In this document: positions 8,521-64,000 of the stretch, in pieces
Layout of the letters: each line of letters starts with the position of its first letter
How positions within the stretch are numbered: position 1 is the first letter of the stretch
DNA from: Eledone cirrhosa
Taxonomy: Eukaryota
Length of the DNA stretch: 64,000 bases
Direction: 5' to 3'
Assembly: GCA_964016885.1 (NCBI GenBank)
Contig: OZ024740.1
Span: 236,964,001-237,028,000, forward strand
Notes under the pieces: generated by a model
What the model was told of the DNA's origin: nothing
Databases searched by the model: none
What the model saw: only the letters and a program-made list of their open reading frames with translations
Translations under genes and position numbers: made by a program

Positions 8521-9464
8521 ATGTTGATGTAACAGAGCGTTGATATTACAGAAGTTGATGCACATGGCATTGCAATCGAAAGGTTGTGAGTTCAATTCTC
8601 AGACTGGGTGATGTGTTGTTTCCTTGAGCAAGACACTTTATTTCACATTGCTCCAGTTTACTCAGCTGTAGAAATGAGATGATAGGGACTGGGGTCCCTA
8701 TCATTCCACTGCAAAGTGGTCGTGTAGGCGCCACGGCAAAAGAAAGCACCCAGCACTCACTGTAAAAAAATGAGGTTGGTGTTAGGAAGGGCATCCAGCT
8801 GTAGAAATCAAGCCAGAATCAGTTCCCGTCCCACCCTTGCAAGCAGGGAAAAGTGGACGTAAAAAAAAATGAAATAAATGAAATGAAATGAAAATGATGT
8901 AACAGAATGTTGATGTAACAGAATTGGAACATTGGCATTACAGAATGTTAATGTAACAAAATGTTGATGTAACAGAATGTTGATGTAACAGAATGTTGAT
9001 GTAACAGAATGTTGATGTAACAGAATGTTGATGTAACAGAATGTTGATGTAACAGAATGTTGATGTAACAGAATGTTGATGTAGCAGAATGTTGATGTAG
9101 CAGAATGTTGATGTAACAGAATGTTGATATAGCAGAATGTTGATGTAGCAAAATGTTGATGTAGCAGAATGTTGATGTAGCAGAATGTTGATGTTGCAGA
9201 ATGTTGATGTAGCAGAATGTTGATGTTGCAGAATGTTGATGTTGCAGAATGTTGATGTTGCAGAATGTTTATGTTGCAGAATGTTGATATTGCAGAATGT
9301 TTATGTTGCAGAATGTTGATGTAGCAGAATGTTGATGTAGCAGAATGTTGATATTGCAAAATGTTGATGTTGCAGAATGTTGATATTGCAGAATGTTGAT
9401 ATTGCAGAATGTTGATGTAGCAGAATGTTGATATTGCAGAATGTTTGTGTTGATGTTACAGAAT
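8521..9464. repeat. 16-bp minisatellite (gtaacagaatgttgat), split by a CORE-SINE
   Basis: About 35 units at 8895-9464 plus 2-3 degenerate units at 8521-8560, upstream of the SINE. Confidence 0.95.
8560..8898 (+). mobile_element. CORE-type tRNA SINE with RTE-derived tail
   Basis: B box gagttcaattc; CORE-like ccttgagcaagacactttatttcacattgctccagtttactcagctgtagaaatg; tail shared with the RTE 3' end. Confidence 0.85.
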
Positions 9465-11208
9465 CAGGGGCAGACAGTTGAATGAATTTAAAAAAATTCT
9501 TTAGAATTTATAATTCATTTAAGAGTCTACCACGTATATATACAGTTATCTCTTAATGTTATATTCTTGTATTAATTTATGAGTTTAGATCTTCTCTTTT
9601 GTATTTTGATCAGCAGGTAAATAAAAAGGAATGCTGTATTGTCTGTGAATTGATCTACACCAGAGAAATGGCTATTAAGTTTTTTTTTTATTACAGTCTT
9701 TGAACTCTGAACAAATTGACTATTGACCCAATTAAATGTCACAGCACACAGGCACTGAAGTTATTTTGTCTACAGCCATGAGAAATGACTGAGTATTATG
9801 TGTGTTTAACACCATATATACTAGTTTATTAATTGCACCTCCATTGTATCCATAATGGCTTCTACCTTTGATTTGAACATGTCACATTTTGCTTTTCATG
9901 TATACTGTTTGTATCTTTATTTGCTTTTAAAATTAAAAACAAAATCCGAAATAATCCCATTCAATGCTGAAGTACAGTCTAGCAAAGTCCTGGAGCCATA
10001 GATATCATAGCAATGTGTTTCTATTAGCTCTGTCCAGAATAAATATATTAAACAGTGCTTTTAAATCACCACCCCTGATTGACTGACTGTATGCAATATG
10101 TAGCATTGTGCATTAGGATTACAATCATCTGATAGATAACTCTGCATCTATGTTTCACACATGGGGAAAGCAAGTATCTACAAATACACGAGACTGCATA
10201 TTTTCACTGATGGAGTAGAATCAAATTCTACTTAAGCATTTATTTCATGTGAAGTGCCATCAACATACATTTGTTTAGAATACCAATATTCATATAGTCT
10301 GAGTAGTGATGTAACCAGCCTACTCTACATGCTCAATAATTTGCCAGAGAGGGGGGGGGGGATATGTGTGTGTGTGTGAAGCCCAGAGTATGGTTTGGTA
10401 AATGATTTTTGTGCAGTTTTTTGCACCAATTCACCCCCCTTTCTTTTTATAGTAAAATAAAATATTACTTATCTATGAGTATATATGGTATCTTCTTATG
10501 TGTACTACATATTTTCTAGGGTATATAACTTGAATTAAAAATTACTATGTTCTGAGTTATGTTTGCCCTCTTTGAACATTACACTGCCAGTTTTTGATAA
10601 TATTTTTCCATTTATTGGAAGCCAACAGAGTCCTAAAGACAATAGATTGTCATACTGTGTGGTTGCATAATACAATTTACAATGCAATATGACATTTGAA
10701 TAAATAGCAATGTTCTTCCATTGTGTATGAGAATTTATCTGAAGTGTTCTGGGAGACTAATATTCAATGGATTTATTTGCTCTTTTATTACTGGTTCAGT
10801 TCTTATAGTAACACTATATAATATACATACTGTTAATTCCTGATAGGGTTCCTAATGTTATCTGCTTCCATTTGAATATACTGGCAAAATTAGATTGAAC
10901 AATTTCTAGTTCTTCCATATACAGAAATATTTGTTAAGGCACATTGAATACCATAATCCTAGATATACTGTGTCTAAATACAAGATGAGAAAAATGTTTT
11001 TGATAATAAGTCAGCTTGATTATGGCTGACCTAGGCTAAACAACTACATAACTAATTTTTCTTTACTATTTGAATATCATATCGTTTGGAGTTTTTCAGG
11101 TAAGTTGCTTGAATAAGATTAATCTTATTGTCTTTCCTTTTCTTCTCTATTGCAATAATAGAAACTCTAACTTTTATGGGTATTTTTCTTGTTAAATAAG
11201 GCACCACA

Positions 11209-25646: not shown

Positions 25647-25725
25647 AGCCCAACGGCTTATTTTAAATTTACTTTTTTCCGTTACATTTTTTCCGTTTAT
25701 AGTTTTCGGTGCGCCCGGCCGATTA

Positions 25726-25786
25726 ACTCACTTGATATGCAAATTAGGCTGCTCAGCCGTTAATATGCATAAGGAAAGTATATACT
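25726..25786 (+). promoter_or_regulatory. Putative snRNA-type promoter module (octamer ATGCAAAT 25737-25744, conserved spacer, TATATA 25779-25784)
   Basis: The motif is conserved in the diverged homologue at 45368-45429; function is inferred only. Confidence 0.4.
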
Positions 25787-25818
25787 TTCAGACGTTCAAT
25801 CATCTGGCAGGAAGGTAT

Positions 25819-25861
25819 ACGGTGCTGATGATAGCTAATAAGCTTGAAACTAGTACATCGT
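25819..25861 (+). ncRNA. Minimal type I hammerhead ribozyme
   Basis: acggtg-CTGATGA-T-agct-aata-agct-T-GAAA-ctag-TA-catcgt: 6-bp stem I (one G.U), 4-bp stem II, palindromic ACTAGT stem III, GUA triplet. Confidence 0.75.
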
Positions 25862-26067
25862 TCCTTTGTCAGTGTTGAACAAAAGGGTAACGATGGTTGC
25901 GAAACGCTGTACGGCTTAATTCGGGATGTTTGTTTGTTTACAAACAAACCAGGCATTATAATAAATGTTCGGTAAATCATACGTACATATATATATGTGT
26001 GCATGTATGTTTATATATACATACTACTCTACGTCTGTATACATATATGTATGTACGTATACATACT

Positions 26068-26099
<32 letters not shown>

Positions 26100-33985: not shown

Positions 33986-34255
33986 CTCTGTTGGGTGTAG
34001 TCTCTCTTCCTCCTATTCATTCTCTGCATTCATCAACCTCTCATATTAAGAAAGTGGTGAGGGATAAAATAACATGTGGGAAAAGAATAACAACAGACTA
34101 TTTTAGCAATTTAAAGACTGAAAATAACTGTGGAGATGCTTGGGTGATGAGAAGTAAGGGAGAGAAATCCCTTGGTCTGAGGAGATCCGAATCTTTTGGA
34201 ATAATTTGTGACAATGTAGCGGGAATGGACCTTGTCTATGAACCAACATGATGAA

Positions 34256-34298
34256 AACAACCGATATGTTTCAATCTTATTAGATCTCCTCAGTGAGC
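34256..34298 (-). ncRNA. Probable decayed minimal hammerhead ribozyme
   Basis: Minus strand CTGAGGA-gatct-aata-agatt-GAAA-cata-TC; core and stem II are good, but stem I does not pair convincingly. Confidence 0.45.
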
Positions 34299-34657
34299 AT
34301 ATTCACTTAGTGAAGTGGCTAGACTAGAATATGCCTAAATATATAGGAAAAGGGAAAGAAATTATGCACTGATTATGTGAGTCAATAAATGGTGGAGAAG
34401 AAAATTCTCCTGACCTACCTTTCATTATATTAACATTAATGGTGGCAGCTGCCCTAAAATTTATATATATGTACATACATGTGTCCAATGAGCTTCTGCA
34501 CCAGTTCTATCTTAATAAACTTCACTCACAAAATCAACCAATCAAAGGTTGAGAGAAAAAAAACACTTGTTGAAAATGTCATCCAGTGGGATTGAATCTA
34601 GAACCATCTTATGTTTGCTAAACCTGTATATTTTAACTGCAGAAATAGTACTAATAT

Positions 34658-43729: not shown

Positions 43730-45279
43730 CTGAAAAATATTAAGTCAAATTTATTAGAGATGAATTTATCTCACATATTTTGATTAAAAAGAATTAGACT
43801 CAAAATTTATTATTATTAGATCAATAATGCATTACAATAATGTGGGTACCATTTGAGAGAAGAAAGAAAAGGAGAAGACAAAGACATGGTAATATACTTT
43901 TAAAGAAGACTTAAAAGAGCTTAACATCCCATGAGAAGTGACATGTGACCGAGCATAGAACCGGGATAGTTAGGGACTTCCTATACCAGATGTGTAGCAT
44001 GTCTGTTGGGAGGAAGTAACAACAAAGATAAGAAAAATGTTTTTAAAAATATTTTTCAAGAAAACTTCAGTTTTCGCTTGAATATATTGGTTTTTACATA
44101 TCCCAATGTATTTTTAGTTTTATATTTAAATATTCTGTTTATACCGGCATTCCACAACTTATCTATCTAAATACACAATATTCATTTTCATTAGACATTA
44201 CTATAATATAAACATGAACATGCAGTTAATTATTAGGTGGGATAGAATTTTTTCCTAGCATTGGTTTCCTTTATCTTTTCAGCCACATTATTGGAGAATG
44301 CCATAATTTTTGTTGGCAAGTAAGAAACCTAAAAATGACAAATGACATGAACTTCAAAACAAACTCTAGCAGTCTACTATTCTGTGCTAGTTATACAAAA
44401 TGGTGTCGAAACAACATTGTTCACAAATGTGGACAACAGAATTAAAAATGTATCTCCTTTAATCAATTTTTATTAAAATAACTGTAGTTTTAATGAACAT
44501 AATGCATTCAATTAAGACAAATAAAGGATTCTTTCCCTTCCTAAACAAAAAAAGCAGAGATATTCATACACATATTGTTTCCTAAAAAGTATTGCATCAT
44601 ATGTGTACTTGTGTGTACATACACATACACATGTCACACCCTACTGTCTTAAAAAAGTGAAAGAAACATTGTATAGTGTAGTCTTAGATACACTATATCT
44701 GGACAAAAATAAGAGAGGATGGCAAGAATAATTTGCAGCTAAACAAATACAGTATTAGTATTCCTGTACTTTCTGGAAATGTTCCATCACCCCCCTACCA
44801 TTCTCAACAAGAAATTCTTCACACAGAGATGAAAACTGAATTTCTTATATCTGATATCATGAATATGACAGATATTTGTTCTTTAACCCTAATGAGACCC
44901 TAATCAAACAGACCTATGATCACAAGCATTCTGGTTATGGCCATCCTATTCTCTTAGCAGTTTATAAGATTAAATTATTTTAATGTAAAAACAAATAACG
45001 AAACGAAATTAAATTTCGTTTCGTTTGTAACTCACTTTTGTATGACTGACGCTTAAACAATTAAGTTAAAAATGTACATCCACATATGTATACTGAAATA
45101 CTAGTATGCATATGAATACACACACGTGTACATATGTAGATGTACCGAGTTTTTCACTGGACACTTTACTGTGAGTGTCCAGCTATTCTGTATGTAAACA
45201 CACAGACAAACCGGTTTTTAGAGTCATACTGGTTTTCGAGGAAACACCTTTCCTCTATTCTCCAGAAAGCCAGACAAGG

Positions 45280-45324
45280 AATATTGGACTAGTTTCGATG
45301 TTGTTACATCTCATCAGCAATATT
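45280..45324 (-). ncRNA. Minimal type I hammerhead ribozyme (canonical)
   Basis: AATATTG-CTGATGA-GATGT-aaca-ACATC-GAAA-ctag-TC-CAATATT: perfect 7-bp stem I, 5-bp stem II with G10.1-C11.1, palindromic ACTAGT stem III, GUC triplet. Confidence 0.92.
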
Positions 45325-45367
45325 TACCTATCTTCCGGCCTTTCTAGAGAATCGTAAAAGCACATAT

Positions 45368-45429
45368 CGTTATATGCTTTTTCTATGAAAATTAGTAGTG
45401 GGCAGACTAATTTGCATAGAGCGTGAGTA
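45368..45429 (-). promoter_or_regulatory. Putative snRNA-type promoter module (octamer 45410-45417, TATA-like catataa at about 45370-45376)
   Basis: Conserved with 25726-25786; function is inferred only. Confidence 0.4.
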
Positions 45430-45689
45430 CGTACCGGTTCAGCGGAGACGATAAAAACAAATAACGAAACGAAATTAAATTTTGTTTCGTTTGTAACTCA
45501 CTTTTGTATGACTGACGCTTAAACAATTAAGTTAAAAATGTACAACCACATATGTATACTGAAATACTAAATGTGTTCTTCATTTAAGATGGCAGGGCAT
45601 CATTTGCCAGAGATCTGGCTGTTGTTCACATGTTGAGCGACCATATAGTGACTCATTCAGTTGTAGTTTTATTATATAGTTAGATTGAG

Positions 45690-58100: not shown

Positions 58101-58436
58101 ACTTAAGCAGCTAGTGATAGTTGCTTAAGTTCCACATAAATAAAATGCCCAACTGCTCAACAGTTGAACATGTGAAGAGTAGCAACAAATAAGTACCTTA
58201 CTTAAAAACAAATAAAAATTGACATCAAGAAAGGCATCTGGTAATAGAATACTGTCACAAGAACTCTCATCCAGCCCATGACAGCATGAAAAAAGCAGAT
58301 TGTTAAATGGTAATGATATATATTACAAAGAAAATATTATATAGGATTGAAGAGATATTGTAAGATAAAATTAAATGTTACAAAATATCACATATTGTAG
58401 ATATAGTATTACACATCACACAGGATATATATCATA

Positions 58437-59021
58437 TGGCAACACGACAAAAAGCATCTGGCCCACACTGTAAAGTGGTTGTAATGGCAACACAACAAAA
58501 AGTTCCCAGCCCACACTGTAAAGTGGTTGTGATGGCAACACGACAAAAAGTTCCCAGCCCACACTGTAAAGTGGTTGTGATGGCAATACTACAAAAAGAG
58601 CCCAGCCCACACTGCAAAGTGGTCGTGATGGGAACACAACAAAAAGTGCCCAGGAAATACTGTAAAGTGGTCGTGATGGCAACATGACAAAAAGTGCCCA
58701 GCCCACACTGTAAAGTGGTCGTGATGACAACACAACAAAAAGTGCCCAGCCCACACTGTAAAGTGGTCGTGATGGTGTCACAAAAAAAAAAAAGCACTCA
58801 GTCGACACTTTAAAGTGGTCATGTAGGCATCATGACAAAAAGCACCCAGTACTCACTGTAAATGTGATTGGCATTAGGAAGGGCATCCAGCTGTAGAAAC
58901 CAAGCCAAAATCAGTTCTGTATGAGCAAGGCATGGTCACACGATTTAGCATTGCCTACAACAGGACAACTCGTCTAACCCATGCTAGTGTGGAAAAATGG
59001 ACATAAAATGATGATGATGAT
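58437..59021 (+). mobile_element. RTE-type 3'UTR/tail with a 48-bp unit expanded about 8-9 times
   Basis: Unit aaaagtgcccagcccacactgtaaagtggtcgtgatggcaacacaaca, then aggaagggcatccagctgtagaaa...catgctagtgtggaaaaatggacataaaatgatgatg. Confidence 0.85.
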
Positions 59022-60024: not shown

Positions 60025-60370
60025 AAATGACAATATAGCTGCCAAGGAAATAGAGAAACTATCTAAATATAAATATCTAGAGATAAAAATAACCTGAATG
60101 TGGATGATGAAAACAGAAACAATACCTATAATAATAGGTGCTCTGGGAATAATAATATAAACAGACAGAGAGATACATAACCAAAACCCTAGAACTTAAA
60201 AATGTATACATCATACAGAAAATAGCACTACTGGAAACAGCACACATATTACAAAGTATACTCTGAATACAAAGGAAACAACACCACCAAAAACTATGCT
60301 GCATATAAACAAGATGCACAGAGCTGTACTCAGTAATGAAGTGATGACACAATAAAAATAAGACTAAAAA
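60025..60370 (+). mobile_element. R4/Dong-like LINE 3' fragment
   Basis: NDNIAAKEIEKLSKYKYLEIKI..MWMMKTETIPIIIGALGII...IQKIALLETAHIL (end of a REL endonuclease) plus 3'UTR. Confidence 0.8.
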
Positions 60371-60374
60371 TATA

Positions 60375-60966
60375 ATAATAATTGTTTCTACTTTTGGCAC
60401 AAGGCCAGCAATTACCCAGTGTATTACTGGTACTTTATTTTATCAACCCCGTAAGGATGAAAGGCAAAGTTAACCTCGGCGGGATTTGAACTCAGAATGG
60501 CAAGGGCCGTAACTCTATGCGTCAAAAAATATAATAATTGTTTCTACTTTTGGCACAAGGCCAGCAATTACCCAGTTCATGACTGGTACTTTATTTTATC
60601 GACAACCAAAAAAAATCTGGTAAAATTATATAATTGTAAAAAATTATTGATATTTAAACATCTACTGACAAAATTTCAAGCCTGCACATAGAAAATTAAG
60701 AAAATGACAAACAAATAAATTTGATAACCCTCTTGAGTATGATTAACTCAAAATAATTGGTTTTGGCACAAGGCCAACAATTTTTGGATAGAGGAAAATC
60801 AATTAAATCAACCTCAGTGCATTACTGGAACTTTATTTTATTGACCCTCCATAAGAATGGAAGACAAAGCTAATGTGGTGGGATTTGAAATCAGAATGTA
60901 AAGGGTCATAACTATGCTGTAAAGCATGTTGCCTGGCACTCTACTGATACTGCCAATCCACCACCC
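60375..60966 (-). mobile_element. Three family-A SINE copies (60375-60523, 60533-60603, 60752-60966)
   Basis: Repeated aattgtttctacttttggcacaaggccagc start on the plus strand. Confidence 0.85.
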
Positions 60967-60984
60967 TAATAACAATAACAACTA

Positions 60985-61735
60985 TTATTTCTTTATTAGC
61001 CACTAGGGCCAAAAGAAAAGACAATATAAAAATAGGGACAGTGGGGATTTACATAAAATGTGTAAAAAAAATTAACAGGTAACAATTAACAATTAATAAC
61101 AATAAAATTTCCCAATAGGGAAGTACCACCCAGGGGTAACTTAGGAACCACACAGATCCTAAACCACTTTCTTCTCTAAACTCTCCAGTATACAGGCACC
61201 TGGTGAGAGTAGTTCATTCACTTGGGCCATCCTCGCTACATTCACCTACCTTTTAACAAATGTACTGTGGGAGCAGCACTTCCCTCTCTACCCTCACCTT
61301 TCTTTCCAAGTAGAACTTGAAAAAGTTGATGAGGGCTTGGCCAAATAGGAAAGTGGCAATAATAATCATAATAATAATTTACAGGCCCATTCACTCAGAC
61401 CACACTCACCACTCTCACCCACCTTTCAACAAATTGGTTGGAAGGTAGCACTTCTAGCTCCACTCTGATTTTTCTCTTCAAGTGAGACTTGAAAACATTA
61501 ATCAAGGCTTCGCAGAAGAGGAAAGTACTGTCTTCAACCCTTTCAAACATGTCCACCACATCACCTCTATCGCCATGGTCACCAGGCAGATTAAACTGCC
61601 TGTCCTTCCCAGCTAAAAGAAGAGGGTGGGGTGATCTTCACAATGGACCAAGATTGATAGCTGGATATTCGTTCTACACATGACAGTAGATGTTTGACAT
61701 AAACCCACATGTTAACAATACTTGGACACTTGACT
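60985..61735 (-). mobile_element. Two Tx1-like 3' fragments (about 60985-61355 and 61380-61735)
   Basis: Similar to 1030-1850 and 62762-63192; separated by (aat)n. Confidence 0.65.
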
Positions 61736-61749
61736 CATAATAATAATAA

Positions 61750-61940
61750 TAATAATTGTTTCTACTTTTGGCACAAGGCCAGCAATTACACAGTGCATTA
61801 CTGGTACTTTATTTTATTGACCCTGTAAGGATGAAAGGCAAAGTGAACCTCGGCGGGATTTGAACTCAAACCGTAGAGGGACGTAACTATGCTGGAAAGC
61901 ATGGCGTCCGACTCTCTACCGATACTGCCAATCCACCGTC
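61750..61940 (-). mobile_element. SINE family A
   Basis: Near full length, preceded by (taa)n. Confidence 0.9.
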
Positions 61941-61944
61941 AATA

Positions 61945-62378
61945 ATATGCCAATACATACAGGTAGAGAGATCAAAGTCAACTGACCAGATATTATAGTC
62001 AAAGACCACAAAGAAAAAAATGCCTTCTAATAGTCCCACAGACGACAATATACCTTCCAAGGAAATAGAGAAACTCTACAAATATAAAGATCTAGAGATA
62101 AAATAACTCGAATGTGGAAAATGAAGCCAGAAACAATAGCTATAATGATAGCTGCTCTGAGAATGATAAAAAACCCACAGACAAATACATAACCAAAACC
62201 CCAGGAGTTACAAATATATACAGCATAGAAAAAAATAGTACTACTAGGCACTGCAAACATATCATGAAAAATATTATCAATACAGTAGAAACACCACCAG
62301 CAAAAACTATACTGCTCATACCCAAGGTGCACAGAGCTGTACTCAGTAAAGCAGTAATGATGTGCAATAAAAAAAAAA
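61945..62378 (+). mobile_element. R4/Dong-like LINE 3' fragment
   Basis: PIHTGREIKVN*PDIIVKDHKEK..PTDDNIPSKEIEKLYKYKDLEI, the REL motif (RPD..D..P..K..KY..L). Confidence 0.85.
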
Positions 62379-62740
62379 TAATTGTTTCTACTTTTTTGGT
62401 ACAAGGCCAGCAATTAGGCCAGTGCATTACTGGTGCTTTATTTTATCGACTCCGTAAGGATGAAAGGCAAAGTTAACCATGGCGAAATTTGAACTCAGAA
62501 CATAAAGGGCCAGAACTCAATGCTGCAAAGCATGGTGTCTGATGCTCTACCGATACGGCCACTCCACCAATAATAATAATAATTGTTTCTACTTTAGGCA
62601 CAAGGCCAGCAATTACGCCAGTGCATTACTGGTACTTTATTTTATCGATCGGCGGGATTTGAACTCAGACTGTAAAGGGACGTAACTATGCTAGAAAGCA
62701 TCGCGTCCAACCCTCTATTGATACTACTAATTCACCGCCC
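62378..62740 (-). mobile_element. Two tandem family-A SINEs (62378-62568, 62578-62740)
   Basis: Separated by (aat)n; the second has an internal deletion. Confidence 0.9.
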
Positions 62741-62761
62741 TAATAATAATAATAATGATGT

Positions 62762-63192
62762 CATTTATTAGCCACAAGAGCCAACATGTAGGGGACAATA
62801 CAAAGGCACAGACAGTGGGAGTTTACAATAAGCTTGAGTAAAAGTTCACAATGGCAAGACCAATTTAACAATGAAAATATAAAATAAAGTATGCATAAAT
62901 ATAACAAAATAAATTCCCCAAGGGTGACTCAGGTACCCCACCAATCCTGAACCACCCTGCGCTTCTAGGGCACCCGGGGAGAGCACCCCTCTCCTCCTCA
63001 AATTAGCCAGCCTATAGGCGTATGGTCAGAGTAGGCCCACTCACACAGGCCATTCTCACCACATTCATCCACCTTTTAACAAATGAACTGGGGGCAGCAC
63101 TTCTCTCTCCACACTCACCTTCCTTTCCAGGTGAAACTTCAAGAAGTTGATAAGGGATTGGCCGAAGAGAAAAGTGTCTGTCTTCAGTCCTT
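62762..63192 (-). mobile_element. Tx1-like 3' fragment
   Basis: Homologous to 60985-61355; minus-strand ...SSFVKRWMNVVRMA C-terminus and an aataaa near the end. Confidence 0.65.
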
Positions 63193-63194
63193 AT

Positions 63195-63723
63195 AATAAT
63201 AATTGTTTCTACTTTTGGCACAAGGCCAGCAATTACCCAGTACATTACTGGTACTTTATTTTATCGACCCCGTAAGGATGAAAGGCAAAGTTAACCTTGG
63301 CGGGATTTGAACTCAGACCATAAAGGGAAATAACTATGCTGGAAAGCATGGCGTCTGACCCTCTACCAATTCACCATAATAATAATAATATACTATTACT
63401 CATATATTTTATTATATATAAAGTTAGAGTAGTTTTGATGTATCAAAAAGCCAATGGATTCATTGTATCCTACTTTAATTACAAAAAACAATAATTTATT
63501 AATTAAAAAAGTATGTAAAAAATAACTTTATGTGGTCTAATAATTGTTTCTACCTTTGGCACAAGGCCAGCAATTATCCAGTACATTACTGGTACTTTAT
63601 TTTATCGACCCCGCAAGGATGAAAGGCAAAGTCAACCTCGGCGGGATTTGAACTCAGATCGAAAAGGGACGTAACTATGCTGGAAAGCATGGCGTCCGAC
63701 CCTCTACCGATACTGCCAATCCA
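63195..63723 (-). mobile_element. Two family-A SINEs (63195-63377, 63539-63723)
   Basis: The second copy has the TSD atgtggtctaataat. Confidence 0.9.
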
Positions 63724-64000
63724 TGTGGTCTAATAATATCTGCTAACAAAAGTTTAATGATATGCAAATTTTATAACAAATGTGTATGTAAGATACCCTT
63801 CTAGTACCAGCCTAAATCTTCTCAACTCAGTGAAGGTAGTACATACTTAGGATGACTGAATCAATATCTAAATTGAAATTGACCATTTAGCCATCAGTAC
63901 TCAATATAAATTAATATAATACAAATCAATCAATTATTAAAATTAGTTTTAAATGGACTGAAACCAAGTTGTATTTCTAATACACCAGAGTAAAAGATTT

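What the first reader, a model, noticed from the sequence alone, without database searches (positions are those of the whole stretch)
25726..25786. Conserved octamer + spacer + TATA-like module about 90-100 nt upstream of both hammerheads
Seen: actcacttgatATGCAAATtaggctgctcagccgttaatatgcataaggaaagtatata (25726 onward) versus actcacgctctATGCAAATtagtctgcccactactaattttcatagaaaaaagcatata (minus strand from 45428). The octamer lies 88 and 100 nt before CUGAUGA. This is among the best-conserved stretches between the two copies. Established: octamer, PSE and TATA elements drive snRNA/U6/H1-type transcription, and newt satellite 2, a hammerhead-encoding repeat, is transcribed from an internal octamer/PSE snRNA-type promoter. 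Inference: the element carries its own snRNA-type promoter, which a tandem or circular replication cycle would regenerate. That would be a satellite-2-like system in an invertebrate.
Basis: partly seen in the sequence, partly recalled or inferred. Interest (0 to 1): 0.8.

Follow-up and report, generated by a model that had tools for sequence, protein, structure and literature searches.

The report
Self-cutting repeats carrying snRNA-type promoters
These are short mobile DNA repeats with a hammerhead (self-cutting RNA) motif, and each unit carries a block whose sequence and spacing match this animal's own small-nuclear-RNA promoters, so the repeats likely switch on their own transcription, which has not been tested.

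Summary
The two copies belong to two families (62% identical) of non-LTR retrozymes: type I hammerhead tandem repeats with over 40,000 ribozyme cores in this 3-Gb genome.

The octamer extends to TATGCAAATTAG, which matches the upstream block of host U6, U6atac, MRP, tRNA-Sec and U3 genes (0-2 of 1000 shuffles in four of five units). The octamer-to-TATA distance (41-42) fits U3 (40-42), not the pol III genes (46-48). In 12 representatives of seven diverged families, a PSE-like CA is invariant at +17/+18, while the octamer's hairpin partner changes. Three octamer-less families carry the U1/U2-type PSE and TATA spacing instead; one has a copy in this window.

Against: the youngest family (copy 2) scores no PSE, TATA matches are weak, both motifs sit in hairpins here, and no RNA data were available.

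Best reading (0.62): an internal pol II snRNA-type promoter, regenerated by rolling reverse transcription with Penelope-like integration. The precedent is newt satellite 2; a 2020 review says animal retrozymes seem to lack promoters. The scan noted the same system earlier elsewhere in this genome.

The parts
25677..26075 (+). Family A retrozyme copy, about one unit (units 422-502 bp elsewhere), flanked by (TA)n, one hammerhead only
25736..25749 (+). Extended octamer block; matches the upstream block of host U6/U6atac/MRP/tRNA-Sec/U3; 5' arm of a predicted hairpin
25753..25756 (+). PSE-like TCAG at +16 from the octamer, 26 nt before the TATA-like box (weak-to-moderate score, background tail 0.011)
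25760..25771 (+). 3' arm of the octamer hairpin (families A and B only)
25777..25786 (+). TATA-like box at +42 from the octamer, inside a short palindrome
25809..25809 (+). Predicted transcription start (TATA +30, octamer +72); not observed
   Evidence: inference from host positions
25819..25861 (+). Type I hammerhead with palindromic stem III and U-U at the base of stem II; predicted cleavage after 25855 (GUA)
   Evidence: sequence; no Rfam hit at gathering score
44986..45569 (-). Family B retrozyme copy, 1.25 units of a 466-bp repeat, 99.7% identical to array units; an empty-site contig exists in run X1
45405..45418 (-). Extended octamer block of copy 2; 5' arm of a predicted hairpin
45398..45401 (-). 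CCAC at the PSE position (+16); keeps the family-invariant CA but does not score as a host PSE
45383..45395 (-). 3' arm of the octamer hairpin
45370..45376 (-). Degenerate TATA-like box at +41, inside a hairpin
45345..45345 (-). Predicted transcription start (octamer +72); not observed
   Evidence: inference
45280..45324 (-). Type I hammerhead with palindromic stem III; predicted cleavage after 45287 (GUC)
   Evidence: sequence
34200..34405 (-). Third, decayed hammerhead element (old family J, no octamer) with host-type PSE at 34374-34367 and TATA 27 nt downstream; core at 34293. Extent approximate

Best explanation
These repeats are non-LTR retrozymes whose units carry an octamer, a PSE-position motif and a TATA-like box spaced like the host's U3 promoter, and this block likely works as an internal RNA polymerase II snRNA-type promoter. 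Inferred cycle: a POU2 (Oct-1-class) factor and SNAPc would start transcription about 72 nt after the octamer, just 5' of the hammerhead. With no strong 3' box, polymerase would read through an array. Successive hammerheads would release a monomer that contains the next unit's promoter block in its 3' part, and the monomer would be circularised. A Penelope-like reverse transcriptase would prime about 35 nt upstream of the octamer at a (TA)n target and copy round the circle or along a multimer, restoring the promoter in front of the ribozyme. Shown: sequence matches, spacing, conservation, array and end structure. Inferred: transcription, polymerase, cleavage, circles, identity of the enzyme.
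For: Host map: 7 pol III-class loci have the octamer block at -76 to -79 and TATA 46-48 nt on. 4 U3 loci have a variant block at -71 to -74, TCA at -54 to -57 and TATA 40-42 nt on. U1/U2/U4/U5/U11/U12 have YCA at -55 to -58, with TATA mostly 24-27 nt on; 7SK and RNase P have 32-33. Elements: best PSE score at exactly +16 in 18 of 19 representatives when +15 to +17 was allowed. TATA score is positive at +40-43 in 15 of 19 and negative at +46-48 in 19 of 19. Positions not fixed by the search pattern are conserved across 12 representatives (50-75% identity): -1 T 12/12, +17 C 12/12, +18 A 12/12, +9 A 11/12, +10 G 10/12, against a flank mean of 5.9/12. 0 of 36 chance pattern hits in metagenome/viral contigs have CA there. 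The octamer's pairing partner differs between families. A register-free PSE+TATA score is in the top 5% of random DNA for 13 of 18 retrozyme rows and 0 of 9 other hammerhead loci. Octamer-less families H, I, J, found without conditioning on a promoter, have YCAG with TATA 26-27 nt on. T5-T7 runs lie before the module in all 5 units, which would stop pol III. 3' ends pile up at two fixed sites, mostly in (TA)n; 5' ends are scattered. A POU2-class domain is encoded in the genome.
Against: No transcription data. Family B, young and with many identical copies, has no PSE score (background tail 0.58-0.69) and a T-to-C change in its TATA-like box that is matched by a change in its hairpin partner (alignment), as an RNA-structure constraint would give. 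TATA scores are below nearly all host boxes. One array of 8 units mostly carries a mutated octamer that improves the hairpin (L163). Within family A1 the octamer is not clearly more conserved than the rest. Insertion 5' ends do not pile up at the predicted start. Family rows share ancestry, so they are not independent. Families C-G were found with an octamer-containing pattern, and I noticed the U3 fit after trying other host genes. Host polymerase assignments come from general knowledge and T-runs, not from data.
Confidence: 0.62

Rival explanations
1. The block is an inherited promoter relic or is kept for RNA structure or reverse-transcriptase recognition, and present-day families, above all B, are transcribed by read-through from host transcription units.
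For: Octamer and TATA-like box lie in hairpins in A and B. Family B has no PSE score. An octamer-mutant array exists. A review proposes read-through for retrozymes (PMC7761336).
Against: The octamer's pairing partner changes between families while its sequence and spacing persist. Spacing matches host promoters in two different layouts. The block scores far above background.
Confidence: 0.18
2. The block is a type 3 RNA polymerase III promoter like U6 or tRNA-Sec, with leaky termination allowing multimers.
For: The exact extended octamer is that of 7 pol III-class loci. The first 214-325 nt after the cleavage site lack T4 runs on the ribozyme strand in 5 units. Family B 3' ends fall at a T5 run.
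Against: TATA score at +46-48 is negative in 19 of 19 representatives. T5-T7 runs before the module would end a transcript before it includes the promoter. Most family A ends lie about 7-9 nt beyond the T-run. Lack of T4 over about 280 nt has roughly 13% chance per family (hand estimate).
Confidence: 0.1
3. Only the octamer works, as a POU-bound enhancer that raises transcription across arrays from dispersed or neighbouring starts; PSE and TATA resemblances are incidental.
For: The octamer block is the only part that is individually strong in both window copies.
Against: Invariant CA at the PSE position and octamer-less families with PSE and TATA.
Confidence: 0.1

Closest known systems
Newt satellite 2 (Coats, Zhang, Epstein 1994, PMC308520; paper not held; seen only as a passage and reference in PMC2220036; octamer + PSE detail recalled)
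   Same: Tandem hammerhead repeat with an internal snRNA-type promoter for pol II; short palindromic stem III (described for amphibian ribozymes in PMC7229834).
   Different: Here octamer, PSE position and TATA are packed into about 50 bp and copy this host's own layout; many families and two promoter layouts; no experiment yet.
Metazoan non-LTR retrozymes (Cervera and de la Pena 2020, PMC7229834; abstract, results and discussion read, supplement unreadable)
   Same: Tandem non-coding units with one type I hammerhead, GC below 50%, highly self-paired predicted circle; U-U at the base of stem II in family A as in axolotl HHR_Amex2.
   Different: Units of 422-502 bp are above the 170-400 nt reported. 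A review from the same field states that retrozymes do not seem to harbour promoters (PMC7761336, passage).
Penelope-like elements and their pLTRs (Craig et al. 2021, PMC8557442, passages; Li et al. 2026, bioRxiv 10.64898/2026.07.22.740005, parts 1-3 of 5 read)
   Same: 5' truncation, partial tandems, inverted 5' copies, two alternative 3' ends (tail), (TA)n targets.
   Different: No ORF. The tail here is about 56-74 nt rather than 30-40. The 9 other hammerhead loci tested, including one Penelope-like pLTR, show no snRNA-type core. The preprint has 0 occurrences of promoter, octamer, snRNA, octopus or mollusc.
Host U3 snoRNA promoter (this genome, 4 loci)
   Same: Octamer-like block at about -73, TCA at about -56, TATA at -31; U3 loci rank first in ungapped comparison for both copies.
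   Different: U3 has T instead of C in the octamer, an extra upstream AATTA block and PSE at +17 rather than +16. The similarity (29 of 58 positions at best) does not prove descent.
Schistosome hammerhead satellite (Ferbeyre 1998; not held; passage in PMC2220036)
   Same: Invertebrate hammerhead satellite with an internal promoter.
   Different: Its promoter is reported as pol III; this one has snRNA-type upstream elements.

Membership tests
Metazoan non-LTR retrozyme | Type I hammerhead in each unit | tested here: met
   Core and stems read directly; 40,359 core matches, control 14. Rfam gave no hit at gathering score.
Metazoan non-LTR retrozyme | Short tandem non-coding repeats, dispersed, no LTR/PBS/PPT | tested here: met
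   Units of 422-502 bp in dispersed arrays, one of about 30 units at C1:5.74 Mb. PBS/PPT not searched explicitly; no LTR-internal structure seen. The window copies hold one hammerhead each.
Metazoan non-LTR retrozyme | Highly self-paired RNA | tested here: inconclusive
   301-nt pieces: family B z -6.8, decayed family A copy z -1.6; circular folds -127 to -173 kcal/mol without shuffle control.
Metazoan non-LTR retrozyme | Self-cleavage and circular RNA in vivo | not testable with these tools
   No RNA run listed.
Penelope-mobilised non-autonomous element | Fixed 3' ends with tail, 5' truncation/inversion, microsatellite target | tested here: met
Penelope-mobilised non-autonomous element | Identified autonomous partner sharing terminal sequence | tested here: inconclusive
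   Fragments with a GIY-YIG-like motif (recalled; no Pfam hit) share TA targets with family A at L128 and L036; no shared terminal sequence was evident by eye.
snRNA-type pol II promoter (satellite-2-like) | Octamer matching the host element | tested here: met
snRNA-type pol II promoter (satellite-2-like) | PSE matching the host consensus at the host position | tested here: inconclusive
   Met in C, D1, E7, J; modest in A, H; not met in B. CA invariant in 12 of 12.
snRNA-type pol II promoter (satellite-2-like) | PSE-TATA spacing of the host pol II class (mostly 24-27) | tested here: met
   25-27 in A, B, C, D, H, I, J
snRNA-type pol II promoter (satellite-2-like) | Initiation at the predicted site, SNAPc dependence, alpha-amanitin sensitivity | not testable with these tools
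Type 3 pol III promoter (U6/H1-like) | Octamer-TATA spacing 46-48 as in host U6, U6atac, MRP, tRNA-Sec | tested here: not met
   Negative TATA score at +46-48 in 19 of 19

The most novel reading that the evidence does not exclude
A host snRNA-type pol II promoter is the general engine of animal retrozymes. In this genome about ten families carry one, in either of the host's two layouts (U3-like with octamer; U1/U2-like without), while the other hammerhead loci tested, including a Penelope-like pLTR, do not. Acquiring such a promoter would be the step that turns a Penelope-dependent fragment into a self-transcribing circular-RNA parasite, a pol II counterpart of SINEs, and would explain why retrozymes are so highly expressed in all tissues.
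Probability: 0.3. Interest if true: 0.75.

Novelty: new variant of a known kind. Interest (0 to 1): 0.58.

Why it matters
How retrozymes are transcribed is open: a 2020 review says they seem to lack promoters, the 2026 preprint does not address it, and the newt case has stood largely alone. A promoter block that tracks the host's own snRNA layouts across many families gives exact predicted start sites and mutations to test. It suggests why these circles are abundant in all tissues, and it places tens of thousands of Oct-1/SNAPc-type sites in one genome. The host promoter map (PSE-TATA 24-27 vs 32-33, octamer-type U6 promoter) is also useful for small-RNA expression tools in this animal group. 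No paper on this turned up in searches of an open-access library; subscription papers, repeat databases and the supplement of PMC7229834 were not visible and may bear on novelty.

Tried and rejected
Rfam scan of the window: no hit.

RNA evidence: no RNA holder listed. Laying contigs of unlabelled runs on copy 2 and on 7SK could not show expression. The 466-nt wrap-around contig in X4 fits a tandem array as well as a circle.

A-to-G excess as a sign of editing in family B: none, 13 A>G vs 12 T>C sites.

Pile-up of insertion 5' ends at the predicted start or cleavage site: none (clusters at +100 and -238 are query-end and microsatellite artefacts).

Same layout in other organisms: 35 metagenome and 1 viral pattern hits lacked hammerhead stems and were treated as chance.

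U6-type spacing: rejected. Reading the reverse-strand hairpin arm as a second promoter: no TATA at the host distance (by eye). Host 3' box inside units: best 5.1-7.7 bits vs 8.6-15.4 in 10 host boxes, from a crude matrix built on 10 of 17 loci.

Host loci left out of the matrices: pseudogene-like copies without upstream elements (L074, L075, L106-L112, L199, L200, L202), SINE-interrupted U6 copies, and near-identical cluster members; 32 loci kept. Two U5 rows were mis-anchored and corrected.

Primary papers on newt and schistosome satellites were not held.

Full report
OBSERVATION. Each is followed by a complete type I hammerhead with a short palindromic stem III; Rfam does not detect them at gathering score. 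The copies belong to two repeat families. Family B has a 466-bp unit; all 40 scored matches were 100% identical over 291 bp, of 817 candidates. Family A has units of 422-502 bp; the 42 other long matches were 92-96% identical, of 3110 candidates. The shared ribozyme pattern occurs 40,359 times (control 14). Full units are 62% identical, and TATGCAAATTAG is their longest identical run. The host is an animal with a 3.0-Gb genome and five POU-domain matches in four genes. It is probably an invertebrate, and its repeats look like those of an octopus; that is recalled, not tested.

WHAT THE ELEMENT IS. Arrays are dispersed, sit in (TA)n and often have an inverted 5' part. Mapped 3' ends cluster at two sites: -33 to -37 (17 ends) and -103 to -108 (14 ends) of 36 in B; -37 (20 ends) and -93 to -97 (28 ends) of 70 in A1, relative to the octamer. 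5' ends are scattered. These are the features described for Penelope-like integration (PMC8557442, passages), and the whole fits non-LTR retrozymes (PMC7229834). A contig in run X1 skips copy 2 entirely, so an empty allele exists. Because copying starts about 35 nt upstream of the octamer and copies still contain the module, the template must be a circle or a multimer (inference). Each window copy has one hammerhead and so probably cannot release a monomer itself; arrays elsewhere can.

HOST PROMOTERS. I retrieved the host's own small-RNA genes and kept 32 distinct loci. Nearly all have a TATA box at about -30. Three U6 loci, U6atac, MRP and two tRNA-Sec genes carry TATGSWAATKAG at -76 to -79, 46-48 nt before TATA. 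U1, U2, U4, U5, U11 and U12 carry a PSE-like YCA(G) at -55 to -58, mostly 24-27 nt before TATA, and most have AATTA near -90. 7SK and RNase P carry the same PSE 32-33 nt before TATA. Four U3 loci combine an octamer variant at -71 to -74, TCA at -54 to -57 and TATA at -31/-32, so 40-42 nt from octamer to TATA. U3 is taken as pol II from general knowledge and from an internal T6 in one copy. Fixed spacing in snRNA promoters is established for insects (PMC1761439, abstract and passages).

THE MODULE AGAINST THE HOST. The octamer block scores 20.1 bits in A1/A2 and 16.8 in B/B2 (0-2 of 1000 shuffles; background maximum 11.7 in 125,500 positions); the A3 unit used, with a mutated octamer, scores 11.8 (23 of 1000). 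Octamer to TATA-like box is 42 (A) and 41 (B), the U3 value. U3 loci rank first in an ungapped comparison for both copies, in a register I chose. In the window copies alone, PSE and TATA are weak (A) or absent and weak (B).

OTHER FAMILIES. A pattern for octamer plus hammerhead with another stem III gave 2,991 hits (control 5) and exposed older families C-G. In 19 representatives the best PSE score among +15 to +17 fell at +16 in 18. Family C carries ATCAGTCACT, as in one host U2. TATA scored positive at +40-43 in 15 and negative at +46-48 in all 19. In 12 representatives (50-75% identity, where about 50% is alignment noise), columns not fixed by the pattern were invariant at -1, +17 and +18. 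None of 36 chance hits from other collections had CA there. In a sample chosen on the ribozyme alone, 11 of 16 family C copies had the octamer; the other 5 are truncated or rearranged before it. The same sample yielded family H and a young 310-bp array (family I) without octamer but with YCAG and TATA 26-27 nt apart. A third, decayed element in this window (34293, minus; family J, 253 candidates) has AATCAGTG with TATA 27 nt on. With the PSE position left free, 13 of 18 retrozyme rows and 0 of 9 other hammerhead loci fell in the top 5% of random DNA; B did not (0.69). Rows within families are not independent, and H and I rows were picked after I saw them.

THE HAIRPIN RIVAL. In A and B the octamer pairs with a downstream arm, and the TATA-like box lies in a second hairpin with one compensated change between families. 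One array mostly carries a mutated octamer that pairs better. In C-G, however, the octamer pairs elsewhere or weakly, so the sequence outlasts the structure. Both constraints may act, since the RNA must fold compactly.

MECHANISM. Most likely (0.62) a pol II snRNA-type promoter, bound by SNAPc and a POU2 factor (a POU2-class domain is encoded, E 4e-64 to Oct-1), starts about 72 nt after the octamer and reads through arrays. Hammerheads, probably acting as dimers given the palindromic stem III, would release monomers that carry the next promoter, and Penelope-type reverse transcription would restore it. Pol III is disfavoured by spacing and by T5-T7 runs in front of the module. Rivals: relic or structure with read-through (0.18), pol III (0.10), enhancer only (0.10). 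No RNA data could be had.

NOVELTY. An snRNA promoter inside a hammerhead satellite is known for the newt (cited in PMC2220036; original not held). A 2020 review says plant and animal retrozymes seem to lack promoters, and a 2026 preprint on animal retrozymes does not mention promoters. New here: a probable invertebrate case, about ten families, both host layouts, and a spacing-based call for pol II. An earlier unchecked note of this scan reached a similar reading on another piece of this genome; I saw it after my tests, and it is not independent evidence. Verdict: new variant of a known kind, interest 0.58.

Noticed in passing
L061, L062, L064, L093-L098, L105, L113, L182-L185, L190-L198: Host small-RNA promoter map: TATA at about -30 in pol II and pol III classes alike; PSE-TATA mostly 24-27 for U1/U2/U4/U5/U11/U12 and 32-33 for 7SK and RNase P; U6, U6atac, MRP and tRNA-Sec use an extended octamer at -77 instead of the ATCAGT PSE.
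   Followed up: yes
L067, L068, L070-L073 (U6 cluster, C19:31.78-31.84 Mb): In 6 of the 16 cluster copies fetched, a SINE-like repeat of about 190 bp is inserted at the TATA box, moving the octamer block from -78 to -270; the insertion has spread with the array.
   Followed up: no
window 34200-34405 (-): Old decayed hammerhead family J with a host-type PSE and TATA and no octamer.
   Followed up: partly
L277:1-887: Young tandem array of a 310-bp hammerhead unit, copies 100% identical, about 70% similar to family H.
   Followed up: partly
L224, L228, L274 upstream of the octamer: Family C carries two or three tandem octamer+PSE-like modules upstream of the main one.
   Followed up: no
L128 and L036 (minus strand): 3' end of a Penelope-like element with a minimal hammerhead and a YY1-like motif (recalled) sits in the same TA run as a family A copy, tail to tail.
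   Followed up: partly
L281:1320-1420: A short reverse-transcriptase-like motif (Penelope type by recall) is joined directly to a truncated family C promoter block.
   Followed up: no
window 44981-45570: Copy 2 appears polymorphic: a contig in run X1 spans the empty site, with about 5 ambiguous letters at the joint.
   Followed up: partly
3' flanks of L093-L098, L173-L178, L205: Candidate host snRNA 3' box, AAAWCAGA, about 10-20 nt after the mature end.
   Followed up: partly
window 8815-9534, from 37088, 58388-58837: Minisatellites with 16-, 22- and 48-bp periods; also many copies of a SINE-like repeat, dense at 60300-63800.
   Followed up: no
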